Of a stretch of 41,981 nt of DNA, positions 105 through 39,173 are shown piece after piece (position 1 is the first letter of the stretch; every line of letters starts with the position of its first letter). The stretch lies in the IMG/VR virus record IMGVR_UViG_3300029127_000011; one strand, 5' to 3'. The position numbers and the translations under genes are program-made. The notes below the pieces were generated by a model. It worked only from the letters and a program-made list of their open reading frames with translations, had not been told where the DNA came from and searched no databases. Source of the DNA: a virus.

Positions 105-1271
105 ATGGCAACACTGAGATTATATCTAGATACAAGGGTTAAAAGGCAGGATGGTACGTTCTCCATCCGGCTTGCTGTCAACCACCATGGTGGGACTGCC
201 TTCATTTCCCTCAATCAATACTGCAAGAAAGATGAGTGGGATAAAAGGGCTTGCAAGGTGCGAAAGCGTCCGGATCGTGATGCTATCAACGACTTCCTTC
301 TTGACCGTCTGAATTTTTATAATAGAATGATGATGAAGGCGCAATGCAGGGAAACATACCGTGGCGACATTACGGCTAGGGAACTCCGGGACTTAATAAT
401 GCTTGAAGCCGAGCCTGCAAGGGAGAAGGTCGCCCTGCTTCGAGATGGCTTCATTGCCTACGAGGGCAGGAATCTGAAAGAGAACACGATAAACAGATAT
501 AAATATACTTGGGCAAAGATTGAAGCTTTCCTTGGGAAGGAAAAAGCGGCTCTGCTTACATACGATGAGATTAATCGGTCTTGGCTTGAAGATTTCGATG
601 CGTTCATGGCAAAGGAAGGCTTGTCTAGGAACACCAGAGCCAGCAGGATGCTCTGTGTCGCTGCTGTCTTTAATCTGGCGATAGATAATGAGCAGACGAA
701 AAACTACCCTTTCCGCAGGTACAGTCTCCGGCTTGAGACAACGAAAAAGCGAAATTTGTCGGTTGAGGAAATCCGCTCTATCTTCGAAGCTGGTGGTGAT
801 GAGCTGGTCGATATGTTCCTGCTTATGTTCCTGCTGATTGGTATCAATGTGAGTGACTTGTTCGCCTTGACAAATGAGAATATCGTCCGTGGTAGACTGG
901 AATACGACCGGGCGAAGACTGGCAGGCATTACTCCATCCTGCTTCATCCCGAAGCTCTCCGAATCATCGAGAAATACAAAGGTGAAAAGAAGCTGCTTCG
1001 TTTCTCGGAGCATTTCAGGAACGTTGATGTTGCAACGGTCATGATTAATAAGAAACTCGCAAAGGTGCGCCCAGGGCTTACTACGTACTACGCTCGACAT
1101 ACGTGGGCATCCATTGCCTTCAACATTGGTATACAAAAGGACGTGGTGTCGCTTGCGCTGGGTCACTCGTTCGGTGTCCGGGTAACTGATACCTACATCA
1201 ATGCAGACCTATCGAGAGTAGATGAAGCAAACCGCAGGGTTATTGATTACGTGCTATACGACAAAAAATAG
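105..1271 (+). CDS. int: tyrosine recombinase / phage integrase (Bacteroidetes type with N-terminal arm-binding domain)
   Basis: 388-aa ORF. The C-terminus reads YYARHTWAS...LGHSFGVRVTDTYI, matching the RHxxA / LGH / catalytic Tyr boxes of tyrosine recombinases. The N-terminus LRLYLDTRVKRQDGTFSIRL resembles the arm-binding domain. Confidence 0.93.
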   Translation: MATLRLYLDTRVKRQDGTFSIRLAVNHHGGTAFISLNQYCKKDEWDKRACKVRKRPDRDAINDFLLDRLNFYNRMMMKAQCRETYRGDITARELRDLIMLEAEPAREKVALLRDGFIAYEGRNLKENTINRYKYTWAKIEAFLGKEKAALLTYDEINRSWLEDFDAFMAKEGLSRNTRASRMLCVAAVFNLAIDNEQTKNYPFRRYSLRLETTKKRNLSVEEIRSIFEAGGDELVDMFLLMFLLIGINVSDLFALTNENIVRGRLEYDRAKTGRHYSILLHPEALRIIEKYKGEKKLLRFSEHFRNVDVATVMINKKLAKVRPGLTTYYARHTWASIAFNIGIQKDVVSLALGHSFGVRVTDTYINADLSRVDEANRRVIDYVLYDKK

Positions 1272-1435
1272 CCCTTATTTCTTGCGAATTTGCCGCAGAA
1301 ACGGCTCAAATTGTTTTCGGGGATAGTTTTACTTGCTTACCACGTAAGCGGCTCAAAACGCAAATTTCGGGGCAAATCGAAAGAAAGAGTACAAAAACAT
1401 AGATAGAATGCAGGTGGTCGGGCTGCTTGCGGAAC

Positions 1436-1470
1436 AAAAAAAAGGGGCTGGCTTTCGTCAGTCCCCTTTT
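1436..1470. terminator. bidirectional rho-independent terminator between int (+) and the 87-aa gene (-)
   Basis: AAAAAAAA-GGGGCTG-gctttcgt-CAGtCCCC-TTTT. The GC stem has an A-run on one side and a T-run on the other. Confidence 0.7.
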
Positions 1471-1483
1471 ATATAATTTATAA

Positions 1484-1747
1484 TTAGTTAATATGTTCGT
1501 CAATACACTGGTCGTAGATAGCTTTTTCCAAAGTCCAATCCTCTTTAGGATATTCTCCCCATCCTGCGCCTTCATTATTGTCAATGTACCACAAGTTTTC
1601 ATCTTCCTTAATGGTTGCTACATGATAACTATGTAGGGGTGAAAAGAAAGAATCTTGGTTGTGGTCATAGCATACATCGTATGTTCCATCCTCGTTGTCA
1701 CGATAACGATAACCAGTCTTGTCTAATTCTTCTTCGATTTTTTTCAT
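1484..1747 (-). CDS. small acidic hypothetical protein (87 aa), cargo island
   Basis: The ORF starts MKKIEEE, is very rich in D/E, and is preceded by promoter/5'UTR cassette copy A. Confidence 0.6.
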   Translation of the reverse strand: MKKIEEELDKTGYRYRDNEDGTYDVCYDHNQDSFFSPLHSYHVATIKEDENLWYIDNNEGAGWGEYPKEDWTLEKAIYDQCIDEHIN

Positions 1748-1854
1748 TTTCTTTGGCTTAACCGTGTTGCCTAGGGCTGAAAGTTACTGAATGTTTAAAG
1801 TGCTTATCTCTTAAACACACTGCAAAGATATTAATATTTTTCGGTTCTACCAAA
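1748..1854 (-). promoter_or_regulatory. promoter + 5'UTR cassette copy A (-33 TTTG at 1851-1854, -7 TAtcTTTG at 1823-1830; AAACATTCAG box at 1787-1796)
   Basis: About 105 bp, roughly 85-90% identical to 4360-4464. A 34-nt block, tgcaaagatattaatatttttcggttctaccaaa, is 100% identical. The boxes fit TTTG-N20-TAnnTTTG. Confidence 0.7.
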
Positions 1855-1924
1855 TTTTCAAACGATTTTCTTTTTATTTTATTGTTATTTTAATGTTATT
1901 TTACATTTGCGGCTTGAAATGGGC

Positions 1925-1997
1925 AAAAAAAAATACCCCAGCGGTAAAAAAGTCGAGCCGCTGGGGTAATAAGTGGAGACCACTTTAAACATTCAGT
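1925..1997 (-). ncRNA. candidate small RNA of about 70 nt (5' seed CUGAAUGUUUA, hairpin AAGUGG-UCU-CCACUU, terminator hairpin CCCCAGCGG/CCGCUGGGG + UAUUUUUUUUU)
   Basis: A promoter-like box sits 5-6 nt upstream. There are two perfect stem-loops (1971-1985 and 1936-1966) and a U9 tail (1925-1933). No ORF is present. Confidence 0.5.
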
Positions 1998-2001
1998 GAT
2001 G

Positions 2002-2032
2002 CAAAGGTACGCTTTTCCTTTGAAACCACAAA
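2002..2032 (-). promoter_or_regulatory. Bacteroidetes-type promoter for the candidate sRNA (TTTG-N19-TAccTTTG)
   Basis: The plus strand shows caaaggta at 2002-2009 and caaa at 2029-2032, which is TTTG...TAccTTTG on the minus strand. Confidence 0.5.
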
Positions 2033-2190
2033 ATTATTTACCAAAAAATTTCTTTCTCAACAAATCATTGATGAATCGTGACTTGTTGGGCAATGCGTTG
2101 AGGAAAGGCAGCAGGTCGTTGTCTATCTGTATGCCAACTAGCTTGACCGTTGCGCCAGCACCCTTCTTCGTTCTCTTGATGTTTCTTCTA

Positions 2191-3015
2191 TTATTCTCCA
2201 TATCCGCCATTTTTTACTGGTTCTCCATTTACTCGCAAGAGGTTGCGCTGCTCGACGCTGCACTTCTTCGGGTGCTTGCGTGGAGTTCCATCCTTCTTGC
2301 AGGTCTCGCCTTGATATACCAGGCAAGGCAAGGAGTTGTAATCGTAGCCTCTACGTGAAATACCCCAACCTTCAACCCTTATCGTGTCGAAGCAGTCGCT
2401 GATATAATCGCCAACCTTAACCGGGTTGTGCTCCGTGGCAAATTCCTTTGCCAGCATTCTTCTTTCATTCTCTGCCTTCACCTTGATTCTGTGCAGGGCT
2501 TCTCTGTACTCTTGTTCTGTAATTGTCTTCTCTGTACTCTTGTTCTGTAATTGTCTTCTGTCTTTTTTTAATTGTCTGTCCAACTTCGTTTTCATTCTGT
2601 TCATCTTGTGCTCCAGCTTGCCAATCTGCTTGTAGCTTAGCCACTCCGGCTTGATATTCAACGACAGCCAGTACTGTCGCATTTCCTTGCAATGCCGGGC
2701 GATACTCGGGAAATAGAGGTGTCGCTCGTATGGGTTGCGAAGGAAGTACTTGCAATCGGATAATAGACGACCAAGCATCATGTATTTATGCTTCTGCCCT
2801 TCTCCAAGACTGACAAGCCTTCCGTTGTCCCCGATCCACAGCATTGCGCCCTCTCCCTTCCATTCGAAATCGAAAGCCTTGCTTACCGGATAATAATAGC
2901 CATCGAGCACCGTGCCTTCCTTTAGGTCTCGCCCAATCTCTCGCAGGCAGGTTCTTCCCCAGCTGGTCGTTACCTCGACCACTGCTTGTGCCGGCATCTT
3001 GTCGTATTCCTTCAT
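2191..3015 (-). CDS. hypothetical protein (274 aa) with a central K/R/E-rich coiled linker; contains the 28-bp tandem duplication
   Basis: Long ORF. The N-terminal motif YMMLGRLLSDCKYFL recalls domains seen in polyvalent or anti-restriction proteins of mobile elements; this is from memory and unverified. Confidence 0.7.
   Translation of the reverse strand: MKEYDKMPAQAVVEVTTSWGRTCLREIGRDLKEGTVLDGYYYPVSKAFDFEWKGEGAMLWIGDNGRLVSLGEGQKHKYMMLGRLLSDCKYFLRNPYERHLYFPSIARHCKEMRQYWLSLNIKPEWLSYKQIGKLEHKMNRMKTKLDRQLKKDRRQLQNKSTEKTITEQEYREALHRIKVKAENERRMLAKEFATEHNPVKVGDYISDCFDTIRVEGWGISRRGYDYNSLPCLVYQGETCKKDGTPRKHPKKCSVEQRNLLRVNGEPVKNGGYGE
2503..2558. repeat. perfect 28-bp tandem duplication (tctgtactcttgttctgtaattgtcttc x2) inside the CDS
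   Basis: 2503-2530 is identical to 2531-2558. Confidence 0.97.
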
Positions 3016-3072
3016 ATCTTGATAAATTGTGCAGGGCTTGCACCCTGCTGGTTAATAATTCTGTTGAAATTG

Positions 3073-3276
3073 TTATCTGTTTATTCTCTCAAAGCAATGT
3101 TCGGAAGGGGTATATATCTCCATGCCAGTCGCCCAGCTAATGTAAACTTTAAATGCCCCTACGTTGCGCCCGAACACCTTTGCTTGCATCATTCTTTGTT
3201 TTTTGTTGTCGAAATCAATTTCTTTTATCCCTACAACATTTCTCTTGCGGTCTTCCGCTCTTAGAAGTGCTAACAT
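3073..3276 (-). CDS. hypothetical protein (67 aa)
   Basis: ORF packed 7 nt after the upstream gene on the same strand. Confidence 0.45.
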   Translation of the reverse strand: MLALLRAEDRKRNVVGIKEIDFDNKKQRMMQAKVFGRNVGAFKVYISWATGMEIYTPSEHCFERINR

Positions 3277-3283
3277 ATCTTCA

Positions 3284-3496
3284 TTATTTTTTCGTGAACG
3301 TAATAGTAGTTATATTGCCGCCCTTAAAATGCTTTTCGTATCTCTTGGTTGCTTTATCATACAAGTATCCTCTCTTTATAAGATACCTCTTTCTATCTCT
3401 AAGCATCTGACTACCTTCAACATATAAATAAGTACCCAAAACCTTAGTTGAACCATCAACCGCCTTGGTAAATGTCATAGTTTCTAAAATTTCCAT
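3284..3496 (-). CDS. hypothetical protein (70 aa)
   Basis: ORF in the minus-strand cargo operon. Confidence 0.5.
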   Translation of the reverse strand: MEILETMTFTKAVDGSTKVLGTYLYVEGSQMLRDRKRYLIKRGYLYDKATKRYEKHFKGGNITTITFTKK

Positions 3497-3537
3497 ATCT
3501 TGTTTCTTTGCGCTGGGGATTGCTCCCCAGCTGGTTA

Positions 3538-3825
3538 TTAAAAATCACACTCGTAAGAGTATTGTTTCTTTAGCTTCTCCAAAGCGTTAGATGTAACGAA
3601 GTAAACATTATCAGAACACTCGCCCTTCTTGATGCTTCTGTTCTCCTTTAGGCTCACTGGGTGGTTGAAACGTATCTCCCAACGGTTGCCAACACCTAAT
3701 ATCAAGAAGTCCACTTCACGCTTGCGCTTGTCTAGTTCGGTCTCCTTGTACTCGCCACGCTTGATGAATTTATCCTCATCCTTGAAGTAGCCTACCGCCT
3801 TCATTCCGTTGATTGCTATTTCCAT
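3538..3825 (-). CDS. hypothetical protein (95 aa)
   Basis: ORF in the minus-strand cargo operon. Confidence 0.6.
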   Translation of the reverse strand: MEIAINGMKAVGYFKDEDKFIKRGEYKETELDKRKREVDFLILGVGNRWEIRFNHPVSLKENRSIKKGECSDNVYFVTSNALEKLKKQYSYECDF

Positions 3826-3842
3826 AACTCATCTCTCCTTTC

Positions 3843-4097
3843 TTACTTTGCGTACAATGTTACAACCAATCCTCTTCTGAGTGCGCAGCGGCAAGCGTCC
3901 ATACCAGCCTTCAATGCTCGCTTGATGAACTTGTTGAAGAGTTCCGCTCCGATGAGCTTCAAGATTCCGCTCACTCCTACGAGTGTGTTTATCTTCTTGC
4001 CATCCTCTGTGCGTCCGAAGACCTTAATACGGAAGTTAGAGTTGATGAACTTTGTAGTGAACTCTAAAATGTTTGAATTTGACTTTTTCATTTTCAT
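3843..4097 (-). CDS. hypothetical protein (84 aa)
   Basis: ORF in the minus-strand cargo operon. Confidence 0.6.
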   Translation of the reverse strand: MKMKKSNSNILEFTTKFINSNFRIKVFGRTEDGKKINTLVGVSGILKLIGAELFNKFIKRALKAGMDACRCALRRGLVVTLYAK

Positions 4098-4110
4098 TGG
4101 TTTTTATTAT

Positions 4111-4359
4111 TTACAACTCTTCCTCATCTTCATCAAACCCGAACCATTCACATGCGTCACAGATTTCTGCCTTTCCTTTATAATTGATAACAACCAGATT
4201 GCATCCCTCTTCGTCAGCGCATATACAACCGTTGTTGTATCCTCGGAGGTCTTGCCATCGGTTACTATTGATTATATCTTTTGCATCGAGTTGCCATTCG
4301 TTATGCTCGTTGATATAGTCAACAAACTGTTTCAAAGTTGTCACTTCAATTTTCTTCAT
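4111..4359 (-). CDS. small acidic Cys-containing hypothetical protein (82 aa), first gene of the cargo operon
   Basis: The ORF starts MKKIEV and ends FGFDEDEEEL. It is preceded by promoter cassette copy B. Confidence 0.6.
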   Translation of the reverse strand: MKKIEVTTLKQFVDYINEHNEWQLDAKDIINSNRWQDLRGYNNGCICADEEGCNLVVINYKGKAEICDACEWFGFDEDEEEL

Positions 4360-4464
4360 ATTTTCCGCTTGACCGTGATGCGTAGGGCTTAAGTTACTAA
4401 ATGTTTAATGTGCTTATCTCCTAAACACGATGCAAAGATATTAATATTTTTCGGTTCTACCAAA
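4360..4464 (-). promoter_or_regulatory. promoter + 5'UTR cassette copy B (-7 TAtcTTTG at 4433-4440, -33 TTTG at 4461-4464; degenerate box at 4397-4406)
   Basis: Paralogous to 1748-1854. Confidence 0.7.
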
Positions 4465-4552
4465 ACTTTTCCCGAAAGATATTAATATTTTAACTTTTAT
4501 TGGCTGTTTATGTCGTAAGCATGGCTATTTTCGGTCGTTTTTGGTCGTTTCC

Positions 4553-4593
4553 GGCTGTTTTCGGTACGCTTTTGGCTGTTTTCGGTACGCTTT
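4553..4593. repeat. 21-bp-period direct repeat ggctgttttcggtacgcttt x2, with degenerate copies at about 4502-4552
   Basis: The 20-mer at 4553-4572 is identical to 4574-4593. Upstream units ggctattttcggtcgttttt and ggtcgtttcc are related. Confidence 0.85.
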
Positions 4594-4695
4594 CCACGCT
4601 CTATATAATAATAACCTGCACGCATTAGTTAGAATGAATATAATCTAACTCTCATAACCCCTACCCCTTTTCTCTCAATGAAAAGTGTTCTACGC

Positions 4696-4737
4696 ACAAA
4701 AAATGGGCAGAAAAACGCTCTCCTGCGCTTCCTGCCC
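4696..4737 (-). terminator. rho-independent terminator after the lysis operon
   Basis: Minus strand reads GGGCAG-(21 nt)-CTGCCC followed by ATTTTTT, about 30 nt after the stop of 4765..5322. Confidence 0.55.
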
Positions 4738-29281: not shown

Positions 29282-30041
29282 TGTCTTCCTCCTTTCCTTC
29301 TTGTCTTGGTTTCAGTTCATCAAAGTTCCAGACGATGCGGTCAATATGATCAACTCCCAGAAGCTTGGCAAGGAATGGCTCATCGGCTGGCTTGTAGTGA
29401 ATGATTAAGTTCTCACGTGGCAAAACGCCATCGCCCATTATCGTTGGCAAGTCGTCAGGGGTTAAGTCTTGACCTTCGATTTCAGGAGGTAGTTCCCCTG
29501 CGAATGGGTCGCCCTCTTGGTCGTCCTTGCCTTTCTTCTTGCACTTGCTGGTGCTGCTTGTTTCCACTGGTGCTGGGTTCCAGACTGGCATACCCCAGTT
29601 CTGAAGCTGTGCGCTGTCCCATCGGTTCGCAAGGTCGTTGAAGTCCCAGTTACCGAAGGATAGGTTGTCTTTAATCATAAACTCCTGCTTCTGTGCTTCT
29701 GTCAAGTCTGATGCGCTCACCACGGTAACTGTTGGCTGTTGCTGCCATCCCTGCCAGTACTCCATCAATGCGGATTGCTCATCATCGGAAAGACGCTGCT
29801 CTGCATCCAGCTTCACTTGAATGCCTGCTTCGTCCATCGTGACAATGTGCTGCAAGGCTTTCAGTCTCATGTTGCCACCCAATGCATGGAAGGTCTCATC
29901 AATAACAATCGGGCGCAGGGTCAACATTCGTGGGAACACGATGATGCTCTGCACAAGCTTCTGAAAGTTCGCTTGGCTTATCTCTCTTGGGTTCGCTTCG
30001 TTCTCGCTGACCCTCGATAGTGCGATTTCTTCTGTTTTCAT
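29268..30041 (-). CDS. ParB N-terminal-domain (ParB/Srx-like) protein, paralog 1
   Basis: Contains ENEANPREISQANFQKLVQSI...RPIV...LGGNMRLKAL and MIKDNLSFGNWDFNDL. No methyltransferase domain is attached. Confidence 0.8.
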   Translation of the reverse strand: MKTEEIALSRVSENEANPREISQANFQKLVQSIIVFPRMLTLRPIVIDETFHALGGNMRLKALQHIVTMDEAGIQVKLDAEQRLSDDEQSALMEYWQGWQQQPTVTVVSASDLTEAQKQEFMIKDNLSFGNWDFNDLANRWDSAQLQNWGMPVWNPAPVETSSTSKCKKKGKDDQEGDPFAGELPPEIEGQDLTPDDLPTIMGDGVLPRENLIIHYKPADEPFLAKLLGVDHIDRIVWNFDELKPRQEGKEEDNGEE

Positions 30042-32853: not shown

Positions 32854-32876
32854 TGTCTGAATGTTTTTATTGTTGT

Positions 32877-36215: not shown

Positions 36216-36227
36216 TGTCTGAATGTT

Positions 36228-36527
36228 TTATTTATCAAAAAAGAATTTTCTAGCTGCTGTAATAACGATTGTGCGAAGGAATTTATCCCTTTGCATTGCT
36301 TGAGCAATTCCATCTGCGAGGTAAGCGGTTTTACCGTGGTAAGCAATATGAAAATCGAATCCTTGGTTTCCGTCTTCATCTGCATCTCCAGTCGGCTCTA
36401 TTGCAGCCTGCAGATAGCATCTTTCTTCTTCGGCTTCTTCTGCCCATGCCTTGTACCCATCTGCGGTTCTGCTGAAGTACTTGTCGATGGTGCTCTTGTG
36501 TTTCTGATTGTTTTCTTTTTCTGCCAT
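36228..36527 (-). CDS. hypothetical protein (99 aa)
   Basis: ORF with an AAACATTCAG box 7 nt before the ATG. Confidence 0.65.
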   Translation of the reverse strand: MAEKENNQKHKSTIDKYFSRTADGYKAWAEEAEEERCYLQAAIEPTGDADEDGNQGFDFHIAYHGKTAYLADGIAQAMQRDKFLRTIVITAARKFFFDK

Positions 36528-36643
36528 ATTATTACTGAATGTTTAAAAATTGCCACGGCTTCCCTTGGTAGGTTATGATGGGAGCCCACCCCATAGGTTG
36601 TGCCGTGGCGGTTCGGGCAAACGTTATAACTTTATAAACTAAA

Positions 36644-39048: not shown

Positions 39049-39141
39049 TTAAGCCCTCCAAAAGATTAAAGTTACTAATACGATGGCAACTGCCAGGGAT
39101 AATACTTCGTCACTTGTGATAATCTCGATAAACTTCTTCAT
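39049..39141 (-). CDS. tiny membrane peptide ORF (30 aa, MKKFIEIITSDEVLSLAVAIVLVTLIFWRA)
   Basis: My own translation. Its stop lies 1 nt before the next ATG, and an AAACATTCAG box lies 5 nt before its ATG. Confidence 0.3.
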   Translation of the reverse strand: MKKFIEIITSDEVLSLAVAIVLVTLIFWRA

Positions 39142-39173
39142 ACGCTCTGAATGTTTAAATTGGTTCTACTTGA

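What the first reader, a model, noticed from the sequence alone, without database searches (positions are those of the whole stretch)
1925..2032. Candidate trans-acting small RNA whose 5' seed is antisense to a box at multiple phage translation start sites
Seen in sequence:
- On the minus strand, a consensus Bacteroidetes promoter (TTTG-N19-TAccTTTG, 2002-2032) is followed about 5 nt later by CUGAAUGUUUA.
- Next come a perfect 6-bp hairpin (AAGUGG-UCU-CCACUU) and a 9-bp GC hairpin (CCCCAGCGG/CCGCUGGGG) with a UAU9 tail.
- This gives a unit of about 70 nt with no ORF and the architecture of a classic sRNA.
- Its 5' end (CACUGAAUGUUUAAAGUG) is the exact reverse complement of 17 nt in the 5'UTR of gene 1484..1747. 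It is also the complement of the 10-nt core AAACATTCAG found 3-7 nt upstream of four other minus-strand start codons.

Inference: the RNA is a phage riboregulator that occludes initiation regions of early, recombination and cargo genes. This is attractive in a host clade that lacks Shine-Dalgarno-based initiation. It could alternatively be only the terminator of gene 2191..3015 plus a chance inverted box.
Basis: partly seen in the sequence, partly recalled or inferred. Interest (0 to 1): 0.8.

Follow-up and report, generated by a model that had tools for sequence, protein, structure and literature searches.

The report
Phage antisense small RNA with matching target boxes
A Segatella (Prevotella) copri prophage very probably encodes a ~70-nt regulatory RNA whose 5' end pairs with a short box in front of several of the phage's own genes; in a sister phage lineage the RNA and three of its boxes changed together, which is the signature of real RNA-RNA pairing.

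Summary
On the minus strand, 2032-1925 holds a consensus Bacteroidota promoter, an unpaired 5' stretch CUGAAUGUUU, a small hairpin and a strong terminator.

The complementary box AAACATTCAG lies 3-7 nt before four start codons and in two cargo-gene leaders.

- **Conservation.** About 100 related Segatella copri prophage contigs keep the unit. Promoter elements, seed and stems are almost invariant, while loops, the neighbouring coding sequence and the downstream DNA vary.
- **Strand bias.** The box occurs in about 280 distinct contexts, always in the sense orientation. The only antisense copy is in this unit.
- **Covariation.** In lineage B both hairpins have different sequences and the seed is GCUGAAUGAUUAA. 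Its cargo leader and the start regions of its 31-aa and 99-aa genes read UUAAUCAUUCAGC. That is two compensated positions at three sites.
- **Exceptions.** The exonuclease and 418-aa gene boxes did not covary and look like weak targets. Three single-contig seed variants are uncompensated. Natural deletion variants lack the unit.

Most likely this is a trans-acting antisense sRNA that blocks translation initiation. It works like the P1/P7 c4 immunity RNA but is not homologous to it. Expression is untested.

The parts
2002..2032 (-). Promoter of the small RNA. The -33 TTTG is at 2032-2029 and the -7 TACCTTTG at 2009-2002. It overlaps the end of ORF 2034..2210.
   Evidence: One of only six full matches to TTTG-N17-21-TAnnTTTG in the window, against 0.79 expected. 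Both elements are kept in lineages A-G although the spacer sequence differs. The consensus is taken from PMC7366714.
1925..2000 (-). Predicted small RNA of about 70-76 nt. The 5' end is inferred at about 1996-2000 and the 3' end falls in the T run 1933-1925.
   Evidence: The fold has an unpaired 5' 15 nt, hairpin 1 and a terminator, at -27 kcal/mol and z = -5.8. Among 90 distinct relatives the unit is nearly invariant from the -7 box to the T run, except in the loops. No Rfam family matches.
1981..1997 (-). Seed. The core CUGAAUGUUU is at 1996-1987, with extended pairing over A(1997) to G(1981).
   Evidence: Unpaired probability is at least 0.83 per base. Only 1 variant was found among 90 distinct units. 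CUGAAU is invariant in all seven lineages. Positions -1 and 8 covary with the targets in lineage B.
1971..1985 (-). Hairpin 1: AAGUGG-UCU-CCACUU.
   Evidence: In lineage A the loop varies (UCU, UUA, UCA, UUC, UAU, UUU) while the stem is kept. Other lineages have different stems at the same place: AAGGGU/GCCCUU, AAGUGGUU/AACCAUUU, AAAGGG/CCCUUU.
1925..1968 (-). Intrinsic terminator: an 11-bp G+C-rich stem (1968-1958 with 1944-1934) and U9 (1933-1925). The upstream cargo operon shares it.
   Evidence: Fold. Eight of the 10 aligned terminator pairs show double changes that keep the pair across lineages. L085 carries a compensatory CAG/CUG to AAG/CUU change. Homology between contigs ends right after the T run.
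1786..1802 (-). Target box in the 5' leader of gene 1484..1747. It is 17 nt complementary to the RNA.
   Evidence: It is the best duplex in the window, at -22.8 to -24 kcal/mol. The box lies in the unpaired stretch after the leader's 5' hairpin. The equivalent leader box in lineage B covaries with the seed.
4396..4412 (-). Target box (CACATTAAACATTTAGT) in the second copy of the leader, upstream of gene 4111..4359. This is the first gene of the operon that ends at the small RNA.
   Evidence: The C-to-U change keeps a G-U pair, and the duplex energy is -16.4 to -17.6 kcal/mol. A leader box lies 1.4-2.6 kb upstream of the small RNA in most relatives for which that stretch was held.
39146..39158 (-). 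Target box in the start region of the 30-aa hydrophobic protein gene (ATG 39141). It has 13 nt of contiguous complementarity.
   Evidence: -15.3 to -18.8 kcal/mol. The box is kept in 51 distinct contexts. The orthologous site in lineage B reads UUAAUCAUUCAGC and matches the lineage B seed (also L283).
36534..36547 (-). Target box in the start region of the 99-aa protein gene (ATG 36527). It has 14 nt of contiguous complementarity.
   Evidence: -16.9 kcal/mol. The orthologous site in lineage B covaries with the seed.
36219..36228 (-). Core box (10 nt only) 3 nt before the ATG of the YqaJ/RecE-like exonuclease gene (36215). Probably a weak or secondary target.
   Evidence: The duplex is only about -12 kcal/mol. 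It did not covary in lineage B, where it reads AAACAUUUAG. About 15% of relatives have no box here.
32857..32866 (-). Core box (10 nt only) 3 nt before the ATG of the 418-aa gene (32853). Probably a weak or secondary target.
   Evidence: -12.6 kcal/mol. It stays canonical in lineage B.
2034..2210 (-). 58-aa basic protein gene directly upstream. It is the last gene of the cargo operon, and it is the marker used to find orthologous small-RNA loci in other lineages.
   Evidence: Homologues of 55-98% identity were found. Each one examined that still had downstream sequence is followed by a promoter-seed-hairpin-terminator unit. There is no Pfam or PHROG hit. AlphaFold gives two C-terminal helices at pLDDT about 75. 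The ribbon-helix-helix assignment is inference only.

Best explanation
The locus encodes a trans-acting antisense small RNA of a temperate Segatella copri phage.

**Synthesis (inferred).** The RNA is made from its own housekeeping-type promoter, which overlaps the stop codon of the last cargo-operon gene. It ends at the operon's terminator. This is the layout of a 3'-UTR-type sRNA with its own promoter.

**Pairing.**
- Complementarity and covariation are shown. Physical pairing is inferred.
- The unpaired 5' end, (A)CUGAAUGUUUAAA, pairs over 13-17 nt with a box in phage mRNAs.
- The box lies directly upstream of the start codons of the 30-aa and 99-aa early genes.
- The same box lies in the single-stranded part of the leaders of the cargo operons.
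- The RNA pairs more weakly (10 nt) with the exonuclease and 418-aa gene starts.

**Effect (inferred).**
- Bacteroidota mRNAs lack Shine-Dalgarno sites and rely on an unstructured A-rich stretch at about -3 to -15.
- A duplex over -3 to -16 should keep the 30S subunit off and repress translation. Downstream genes of the early operon would probably be affected by polarity.

**Role (inferred, least certain).**
- The RNA lies in the moron/cargo region next to the integrase and has a constitutive-type promoter.
- The likeliest role is a lysogeny-expressed second lock on early lytic genes.
- It could also give lineage-specific protection against superinfecting relatives. Lineage B changed seed and boxes together, which makes the two lineages' RNAs mutually poor matches.
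- A late-infection shut-off of early genes is the alternative timing.
For: **Anatomy**
- The promoter is one of six full consensus matches in 42 kb, against 0.79 expected.
- The fold has z = -5.8, with the seed unpaired.

**Conservation**
- Ninety distinct units from about 100 contigs were compared.
- The -7 box, seed and stems are nearly invariant. Loops, the upstream coding sequence and everything after the T run are polymorphic.
- One-nucleotide indels rule out coding.

**Architecture across lineages**
- Lineages B-G were found through homologues of the upstream protein.
- All keep TTTG-N19/20-TAnnTTTG, CUGAAU..., a hairpin and a terminator. The hairpin sequences are unrelated.

**Strand bias**
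- The canonical box was seen in 207 distinct contexts 2-9 nt before an ATG and in 67 leader contexts.
- The antisense orientation occurs only in the small-RNA unit.

**Covariation in lineage B (at least 12 contigs)**
- The seed is GCUGAAUGAUUAA, against ACUGAAUGUUUAA in lineage A.
- Its leader, 31-aa gene start and 99-aa gene start all read UUAAUCAUUCAGC.
- Both changed positions are therefore compensated at three unrelated sites.
- Duplex energies are -17 to -24 kcal/mol with the phage's own seed and -10 to -16 with the foreign seed.

**Substitution spectrum in the boxes**
- Sixteen site-by-variant types are A>G or C>U, which G-U pairing tolerates.
- One is G>A and none is U>C. By my calculation from the counts, the binomial P is about 0.02 against a 7:3 expectation.
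- This asymmetry fits an RNA duplex. It does not fit a double-stranded DNA site.

**Precedent in the phylum**
- Bacteroides GibS uses a single-stranded 5' seed on translation initiation regions of SD-less mRNAs (PMC7366714).
Against: - **No expression data.** No transcript, 5' end or regulatory effect has been observed. Everything is comparative.
- **Uncompensated seed variants.** Three variants were each seen in a single contig: L491 (CUGAAUGCUU), L516/L518 (CUGAAUAUUU) and L100 (CCGAAUGUUU). The one leader box available in each does not compensate. Their early-gene starts could not be fetched.
- **Two boxes did not covary.** Two of the five lineage B boxes, exonuclease and 225-aa, kept the canonical A. 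The box at those sites may therefore serve something else.
- **Deletion variants exist.** Natural variants without the RNA exist (L351, L461). Full-length contigs of those variants were not available to show whether their boxes decay.
- **The box overlaps a general motif.** TTTAAA / TAAAAC lies at -14 to -17 of many start codons in this phage. Part of the box's conservation could come from that.
- **Boxes are also recombination joints.** Some relatives show box-to-box deletions.
- **A DNA-binding protein is not excluded.** One that evolved together with an asymmetric DNA site would also produce covariation.
Confidence: 0.7

Rival explanations
1. The box is an asymmetric double-stranded DNA operator for a phage protein. 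One candidate is the 58-aa basic, possibly ribbon-helix-helix, protein encoded just upstream. The 'seed' would then be one more operator, placed at +4 to +13 of a promoter. Covariation would reflect co-evolution of the protein with all of its sites.
For: - A DNA-binding protein whose specificity drifts would drag all sites with it, including the inverted one.
- The putative DNA-contacting segment differs between lineages: TVKLVGIQ in A and TVTLVGVQ in B.
- The inverted copy sits where a repressor would block its promoter.
Against: - About 280 distinct box contexts are all in the sense orientation. Most are fixed 2-9 nt before a start codon inside operons, not at promoters.
- The box is not palindromic or tandemly repeated, as ribbon-helix-helix operators are.
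- The tolerated substitutions are strand-asymmetric: A>G and C>U, but not U>C or G>A. That asymmetry has no meaning for double-stranded DNA.
- The protein has no Pfam or PHROG hit, and its model is only moderately confident.
Confidence: 0.1
2. No separate small RNA is made. The anti-box is the 3' end of the cargo-operon mRNA and pairs within the same molecule with the box in that mRNA's 5' leader. This end-to-end pairing would affect stability or translation. The early-gene boxes would be unrelated translation-initiation elements.
For: - Most operons that end with the anti-box begin 1.4-2.6 kb upstream with a leader carrying the box.
- The leader box covaries with the seed in lineage B.
- The terminator is shared with the operon.
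Against: - A consensus promoter sits immediately upstream of the anti-box. Both its elements are conserved while the spacer diverges.
- The 31-aa and 99-aa gene start boxes lie on another transcript, yet they covary too.
- Pairing in cis and in trans are not mutually exclusive.
Confidence: 0.1
3. The unit is only the intrinsic terminator of the cargo operon. The boxes would be a phage-specific translation-initiation or gene-boundary element that also serves as a microhomology joint for module exchange. The inverted copy would have no function.
For: - The hairpin plus U9 is certainly a terminator.
- The box extends a general TTTAAAAC-like upstream motif.
- Box-to-box and leader-to-leader deletions occur in relatives.
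- Phages lacking the unit exist (L351, L461).
Against: - A functionless 10-13-nt inverted copy would not stay invariant in 90 distinct sequences while neighbouring codons vary.
- It would not keep a consensus promoter in seven lineages.
- It would not change in step with three boxes at two positions.
- By my calculation, the chance of an exact 10-mer complement within a given 15-nt stretch is about 6e-6.
Confidence: 0.07
4. The 17-bp inverted repeats at 1786-1802 and 1981-1997 flank an invertible promoter segment, a Bacteroidales-type inverton that switches gene 1484..1747 on and off.
For: - In this window the repeats flank 178 bp that contain a consensus promoter.
- A tyrosine recombinase gene is adjacent.
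Against: - Only about a quarter of the units have the spacer that leads to a downstream leader. The rest are followed by att-proximal DNA.
- No inverted junction was found among 103 units.
- The complementarity beyond the 10-nt core varies freely in relatives.
Confidence: 0.02

Closest known systems
c4 antisense RNA of the immI immunity region of phages P1 and P7
   Same: - It is a small (~77 nt) phage-encoded antisense RNA that acts through short complementary stretches on the translation start region of phage mRNA, to keep lytic-promoting genes silent (Citron & Schuster 1990, as cited in PMC8198154).
- From my own knowledge: P1 and P7 differ by matched changes in the RNA and its targets, which makes them heteroimmune. 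This parallels lineage A against lineage B here.
   Different: - There is no sequence or structure similarity. No Rfam family, C4 included, matches the window.
- c4 is co-transcribed with, and processed from, the operon it controls. This RNA has its own promoter and lies far from the early-gene targets: 37 kb in the prophage, about 3.4 kb in the circular form.
- It has several dispersed targets.
- The host phylum lacks Shine-Dalgarno initiation.
CI RNA of satellite phage P4 (from my own knowledge)
   Same: A small phage RNA acts as the immunity factor. A short sequence in the RNA is complementary to repeated target sites (seqA, seqC) in phage transcripts.
   Different: - P4 CI is processed from the leader of the same transcript and acts by causing premature transcription termination.
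- Here the boxes sit at start codons and the RNA has its own promoter.
- There is no homology.
GibS and other trans-encoded sRNAs of Bacteroides thetaiotaomicron (PMC7366714)
   Same: It belongs to the same phylum and shows the same logic: a sigma-ABfr-type promoter, a conserved single-stranded 5' seed, and pairing with translation initiation regions of SD-less mRNAs to repress them.
   Different: - GibS is a chromosomal, metabolism-linked sRNA with a long, extended seed.
- This one is phage-borne and about 70 nt, has a 10-17-nt seed, and targets the phage's own genes.
- It is not homologous to any curated family.
Prophage-encoded base-pairing sRNAs of Enterobacteria (DicF, IsrK, svsR, Pas sRNAs)
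   Same: These are small RNAs carried in accessory regions of prophages and expressed from the lysogen. Some limit infection by other phages (titles and abstracts listed).
   Different: - They act mostly on host mRNAs, usually with Hfq.
- This one has matching, covarying boxes in its own phage genome and lives in a host without Hfq or ProQ (absence of Hfq/ProQ is from my own knowledge).
Type I toxin-antitoxin systems such as tisB/istR-1 and zor/orz (from my own knowledge)
   Same: An RNA antitoxin pairs with the translation start region of an mRNA for a very small hydrophobic peptide. Here one covarying target is a 30-aa peptide with a strongly hydrophobic segment.
   Different: - Toxicity of the 30-aa peptide is unknown.
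- The RNA is not encoded next to or opposite the peptide gene, and it has several other targets.

Membership tests
Trans-acting base-pairing small RNA (general class) | Own transcription start signal | tested here: met
   TTTG-N19-TACCTTTG is one of six consensus matches in the window against 0.79 expected. Both elements are kept in lineages A-G although the spacers diverge. This is sequence evidence only.
Trans-acting base-pairing small RNA (general class) | Intrinsic terminator that defines a short non-coding transcript | tested here: met
   The terminator is an 11-bp stem plus U9. Eight pairs show compensatory changes across lineages. The internal ORF is broken by indels.
Trans-acting base-pairing small RNA (general class) | Conserved, unpaired seed | tested here: met
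   Unpaired probability is at least 0.83. Only 1 variant occurs in 90 distinct units. CUGAAU is invariant in seven lineages.
Trans-acting base-pairing small RNA (general class) | Complementarity to several mRNAs encoded elsewhere | tested here: met
   Six sites in the window have 10-17 nt of complementarity.
Trans-acting base-pairing small RNA (general class) | Compensatory evolution of seed and targets | tested here: met
   In lineage B two positions are compensated at three sites. The caveat is that three single-contig seed variants, and two of the five lineage B boxes, are not compensated.
Trans-acting base-pairing small RNA (general class) | A discrete transcript exists and changes target expression | not testable with these tools
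P1/P7 c4 antisense RNA (Rfam C4) | Sequence and structure match to the family model | tested here: not met
   cmscan of the whole window at gathering thresholds gave 0 matches. A permissive scan of 1300-4700 gave only chance-level hits to unrelated families.
P1/P7 c4 antisense RNA (Rfam C4) | Encoded in, and processed from, the operon it represses | tested here: not met
   The RNA has its own promoter. The early-gene targets are on another transcription unit 34-37 kb away in the prophage. Only the cargo-leader target is in the same operon.
P1/P7 c4 antisense RNA (Rfam C4) | Matched changes in RNA and target distinguish immunity types | tested here: met
   This is an analogue rather than homology. 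Lineages A and B differ in this way.
Type I toxin-antitoxin system | Target encodes a small hydrophobic peptide | tested here: met
   The 30-aa product of 39049..39141 has a maximum 15-residue Kyte-Doolittle score of 3.06.
Type I toxin-antitoxin system | Antitoxin RNA gene overlaps or adjoins the toxin gene | tested here: not met
   The two are 37 kb apart in the prophage. In the circular form, L501, they are about 3.4 kb apart.
Type I toxin-antitoxin system | The peptide is toxic when derepressed | not testable with these tools
   This needs expression experiments.
Bacteroidales invertible promoter (inverton) | Inverted repeats flank a promoter, and both orientations occur in populations | tested here: not met
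   The repeats flank a promoter in this window. The arrangement is absent from about three quarters of relatives, and none of 103 units shows an inverted junction.
Intrinsic terminator of the upstream operon | G+C-rich hairpin plus a U run directly after the last gene | tested here: met
   This is compatible with the small RNA sharing the terminator.

The most novel reading that the evidence does not exclude
The seed and box form a programmable 'address code' that defines immunity groups among Segatella copri temperate phages.

- A lysogen's small RNA would silence the early genes of any incoming phage that carries the same box. It would also silence leaky early genes of its own prophage.
- Lineages would escape by changing seed and boxes together, as lineage B did.
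- One target, the 30-aa hydrophobic peptide, may be a toxin held in check in type I toxin-antitoxin fashion.

If so, this would be the first RNA-based immunity or exclusion system described for phages of Bacteroidota. It would act on Shine-Dalgarno-less start regions and without Hfq.
Probability: 0.3. Interest if true: 0.8.

Novelty: new member of a known kind. Interest (0 to 1): 0.68.

Why it matters
- **An understudied host.** Segatella copri is one of the most abundant and least tractable human gut bacteria. Almost nothing is known about how its prophages are regulated. No phage-encoded riboregulator turned up for the phylum in the literature searches run here.
- **A ready experiment.** The case comes with a natural compensatory-mutation experiment, lineage A against lineage B. 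That gives precise, cheap tests: seed swaps and box swaps.
- **A possible tool.** It could supply an orthogonal pair of RNA repressors for translation control in Bacteroidota, which lack Shine-Dalgarno-based tools.
- **A mechanistic question.** It would show how an sRNA blocks initiation on mRNAs that recruit ribosomes through an A-rich unstructured region.
- **An ecological question.** If the immunity reading holds, it explains part of the strain-level prophage diversity in this species.

Tried and rejected
**Scans that gave nothing useful**
- The genome-contig scan with TTTGCAN{2,5}CTGAATGTTT was too loose. It returned 120 chance hits before reaching any relevant genome. It used the only scan of that collection.
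- The metagenome scan for the lineage F RNA returned only chance hits.
- Viral scans for the lineage B and C RNAs found only chance hits or nothing. Those lineages are known only from ENA and Logan contigs.

**Contigs that looked informative but were not**
- Several near-complete IMG/VR contigs with boxes seemed to lack the RNA (066995, 051929, 055385 and others). They simply end inside the LPD11 gene, before the RNA locus. They say nothing about absence.

**Databases with no match**
- Rfam at gathering thresholds and at permissive thresholds gave no family.
- The GenBank phage collection holds only two short, unannotated faecal fragments.
- Literature searches found no description of this RNA or of any Segatella or Bacteroides phage sRNA.

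**Analyses that were inconclusive**
- Retrieval by exonuclease protein returned only relatives 95-100% identical, so it gave no distant lineages.
- RNAalifold on a MAFFT alignment did not align hairpin 1 of lineages B and D. It proposed an alternative 5' stem instead. Support for hairpin 1 therefore rests on single-sequence folds.
- Walking along lineage C and G contigs to their early genes was impossible.

**Readings rejected**
- The 35-aa ORF through the unit is rejected as coding because of indels in relatives.
- The inverton reading is rejected.
Full report
**What is at the coordinates**

- Read on the minus strand, the sequence from 2032 down to 1925 is: TTTG, 19 nt, TACCTTTG, CATCA, CTGAATGTTT, A, AAGTGG-TCT-CCACTT, ATT, an 11-bp G+C-rich stem, and T9.
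- As RNA, the 76 nt from 2000 to 1925 fold at -27 kcal/mol (z = -5.8 against shuffles). The first 15 nt are unpaired.
- The two promoter elements match the Bacteroidota housekeeping consensus: TTTG at -33 and TAnnTTTG at -7 (PMC7366714).
- That full pattern occurs only six times in the 42-kb window against 0.79 expected. All six are intergenic.
- A 35-aa ORF runs through the unit. One-nucleotide indels in relatives break it.

**The box**

- AAACATTCAG occurs exactly six times. Five copies are on the minus strand, which carries nearly all genes. One is on the plus strand, and that copy is the seed.
- Four copies lie 3-7 nt before the ATGs at 39141 (a 30-aa hydrophobic peptide), 36527 (99 aa), 36215 (a YqaJ/RecE-like exonuclease) and 32853 (418 aa).
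- The copy at 1787, and a near-copy at 4397 (AAACATTTAG), lie in a ~110-nt repeated promoter-plus-leader upstream of two cargo genes.
- That leader begins with a conserved hairpin. The box follows in an unpaired stretch.
- Many other genes in the window carry a looser TTTAAA / TAAAAC motif at -14 to -17. The box can therefore be read as that general A/U-rich start-region element plus ATTCAG.

**Genomic setting**

- The window is a prophage. The integrase is at 105..1271 on the plus strand, and everything else runs on the minus strand.
- The minus-strand order is early genes (about 39.4 to 31.6 kb), structural genes, then a cargo region (4.4 to 1.4 kb) that ends next to the integrase.
- Identical integrases sit next to host genes whose products are named Segatella copri.

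**Conservation in relatives**

- A seed-based scan and a seed-free scan of viral contigs recovered about 100 units.
- Ninety distinct sequences were compared.
  - The -7 box, the seed and both stems are almost invariant.
  - The neighbouring coding sequence, the few bases 5' of the seed, both loops and everything after the T run vary.
- The seed has a single variant, in L100.
- The promoter spacer diverges in L077 and L080 while both promoter elements stay.
- Two collections of early regions were examined, one of them retrieved without reference to the box. They carry 1-5 sense boxes per ~12 kb and no antisense copy.
- Overall the canonical box was found in 207 distinct contexts 2-9 nt before an ATG and in 67 leader contexts. 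In antisense orientation it was found only in the small-RNA unit.
- At orthologous start sites the box is kept while the flanks differ. About 15% of exonuclease and 99-aa gene starts lack it.

**Sister lineages and covariation**

- Homologues of the 58-aa protein led to contigs of more distant prophages. Where downstream sequence was available, each carries a unit with the same plan: TTTG-N19/20-TAnnTTTG, a few bases, CUGAAU..., a hairpin and a terminator.
- The hairpins have different sequences. The aligned terminator stems show compensatory changes at eight pairs.
- The seeds are:
  - A and E: CUGAAUGUUUAA
  - B: CUGAAUGAUUAA
  - C: CUGAAUGCUUAA
  - D: CUGAAUGUUGAA
  - F: CUGAAUAAUUAA
  - G: CUGAAUAUUUAA
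- Lineage B is well sampled (at least 12 contigs). One contig, L501, is the circular form and includes the early operon.
  - The RNA begins ...CAUCGCUGAAUGAUUAAGGG.
  - The cargo leader, the 31-aa gene start and the 99-aa gene start all read UUAAUCAUUCAGC. IMG/VR contigs L283 and L258 show the same boxes.
- Compared with lineage A, two positions changed in the RNA: the base before the seed (A to G) and seed position 8 (U to A). Both are matched in all three targets (U to C, and A to U).
- The flanks of those three targets are unrelated.
- Predicted duplexes are -17 to -24 kcal/mol with a phage's own RNA and -10 to -16 with the other lineage's RNA.
- The exonuclease start and the start at the 418-aa position kept the canonical box in lineage B. 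They have only about -9 to -12.6 kcal/mol with either RNA. I therefore regard them as weak targets, or as boxes kept for another reason.

**RNA level or DNA level**

- Within lineage A, the variants tolerated in boxes are almost all A>G or C>U. These keep a G-U pair with the seed.
- There are 16 site-by-variant types of that kind, one G>A and no U>C. By my calculation from the counts, this gives a binomial P of about 0.02 if transitions fell evenly on the ten positions.
- Such strand asymmetry, the strict sense orientation and the fixed distance to start codons all argue for RNA pairing and against a protein-bound DNA operator.
- The operator rival is not excluded. The upstream protein may be a DNA binder, and its N-terminal segment differs between lineages A and B.

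**What does not fit**

- Three seed variants are known from single contigs: L491, L516/L518 and L100. The one leader box available in each does not match them.
- Natural deletions between the two leader repeats remove the whole operon together with the RNA (L351, L461). The RNA is therefore dispensable for carriage of the prophage.
- Boxes are also joints of deletions.
- What pairing 45 nt upstream of an ATG does in the leaders is open.

**Mechanism**

- Shown: the anatomy, conservation, complementarity and covariation.
- Inferred: the RNA is transcribed from its own promoter and ends at the operon terminator. Its 5' end pairs with -3 to -16 of the 30-aa and 99-aa gene starts.
- Bacteroidota mRNAs depend on an unstructured A-rich stretch there rather than on a Shine-Dalgarno site. 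The duplex should therefore block initiation.
- The RNA lies in the cargo region and has a constitutive-type promoter. This points to expression in the lysogen, as a second lock on early genes. The lineage-specific code suggests discrimination between related phages.
- A late shut-off of early genes is the alternative.

**Comparison with known systems**

- The RNA works most like the c4 antisense RNA of P1/P7 immunity and like Bacteroides GibS in its mode of pairing.
- It matches no Rfam family. It differs from c4 in having its own promoter, dispersed targets and an SD-less host.
- I file it as a new family of a known kind. The literature searches found nothing on phage sRNAs in this phylum.

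**Verdict**

- Confidence that this is a base-pairing small RNA is 0.7.
- Interest is 0.68.

Noticed in passing
window 1800-1854 and 4410-4464 (minus strand); L471, L460, L483, L454: A ~110-nt promoter-plus-leader is repeated upstream of two cargo genes. Its transcript would start with the hairpin GUGUUUA(A/G)GAGAUAAGCAC. In relatives the same 5' hairpin heads the late operon. It also heads a cargo gene of a distant phage, there without any box. It is therefore a separate, portable 5'-end element of unknown role.
   Followed up: partly
window, upstream of the ATGs at 30041, 26742, 19928, 16603, 14132, 10698, 9003, 8689 and others: TTTAAA / TTAAAA / TAAAAC is enriched 6-9-fold at -14 to -17 of start codons. 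It looks like a general start-region motif of this phage in a host without Shine-Dalgarno initiation.
   Followed up: partly
L351 and L461, compared with window 1787-4406: Natural variants go straight from one leader to the 87-aa gene and the integrase. The 2.6-kb operon and the small RNA are missing, apparently through recombination between the two leader repeats.
   Followed up: partly
exonuclease gene starts in relatives; window 36219-36544: In some relatives the exonuclease box carries the upstream flank of the 99-aa gene box, and the 99-aa gene is absent. This is a deletion between two direct 10-nt boxes. Boxes therefore also act as recombination joints between gene modules.
   Followed up: no
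L356 9332-9371, L377 9668-9707, L357 7895-7934; leaders of L077, L102, L491, L517: Tandem boxes lie 20-39 nt apart. Some have a tiny ORF (ATGAAAGTGAG...) between them, ahead of the 418-aa gene or a cargo gene.
   Followed up: no
L494-L500 (lineage B), about 4.7-6.7 kb in locus coordinates: Lineage B prophages carry a reverse transcriptase (RVT_1) next to a bAvd gene, which is the signature of a diversity-generating retroelement. They are integrated beside lepA, whereas lineage A sits beside an S9 peptidase gene.
   Followed up: no
window 39049-39141 (minus strand): The first covarying target encodes a 30-aa peptide with a very hydrophobic C-terminal half, MKKFIEIITSDEVLSLAVAIVLVTLIFWRA. It resembles small membrane toxins or exclusion peptides.
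   Followed up: partly
window 2034-2210 (minus strand): The 58-aa basic protein has no Pfam or PHROG match. AlphaFold predicts two C-terminal helices at moderate confidence and a disordered N-terminus. It looks like a ribbon-helix-helix protein only by eye. It always precedes the small RNA.
   Followed up: partly
alignment A1, window 1980-1999: An alternative 5' stem (AUCAC with GUGGU) would present the seed in a 12-nt loop. In lineage E the equivalent stem is the strong pairing CACGCAC with GUGCGUG. It excludes hairpin 1, so the RNA may switch between two forms.
   Followed up: no
window 3512-3531 and 1444-1465: There are further terminator-like G+C hairpins inside and at the end of the cargo region. 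The second one ends the 87-aa gene opposite the integrase.
   Followed up: no
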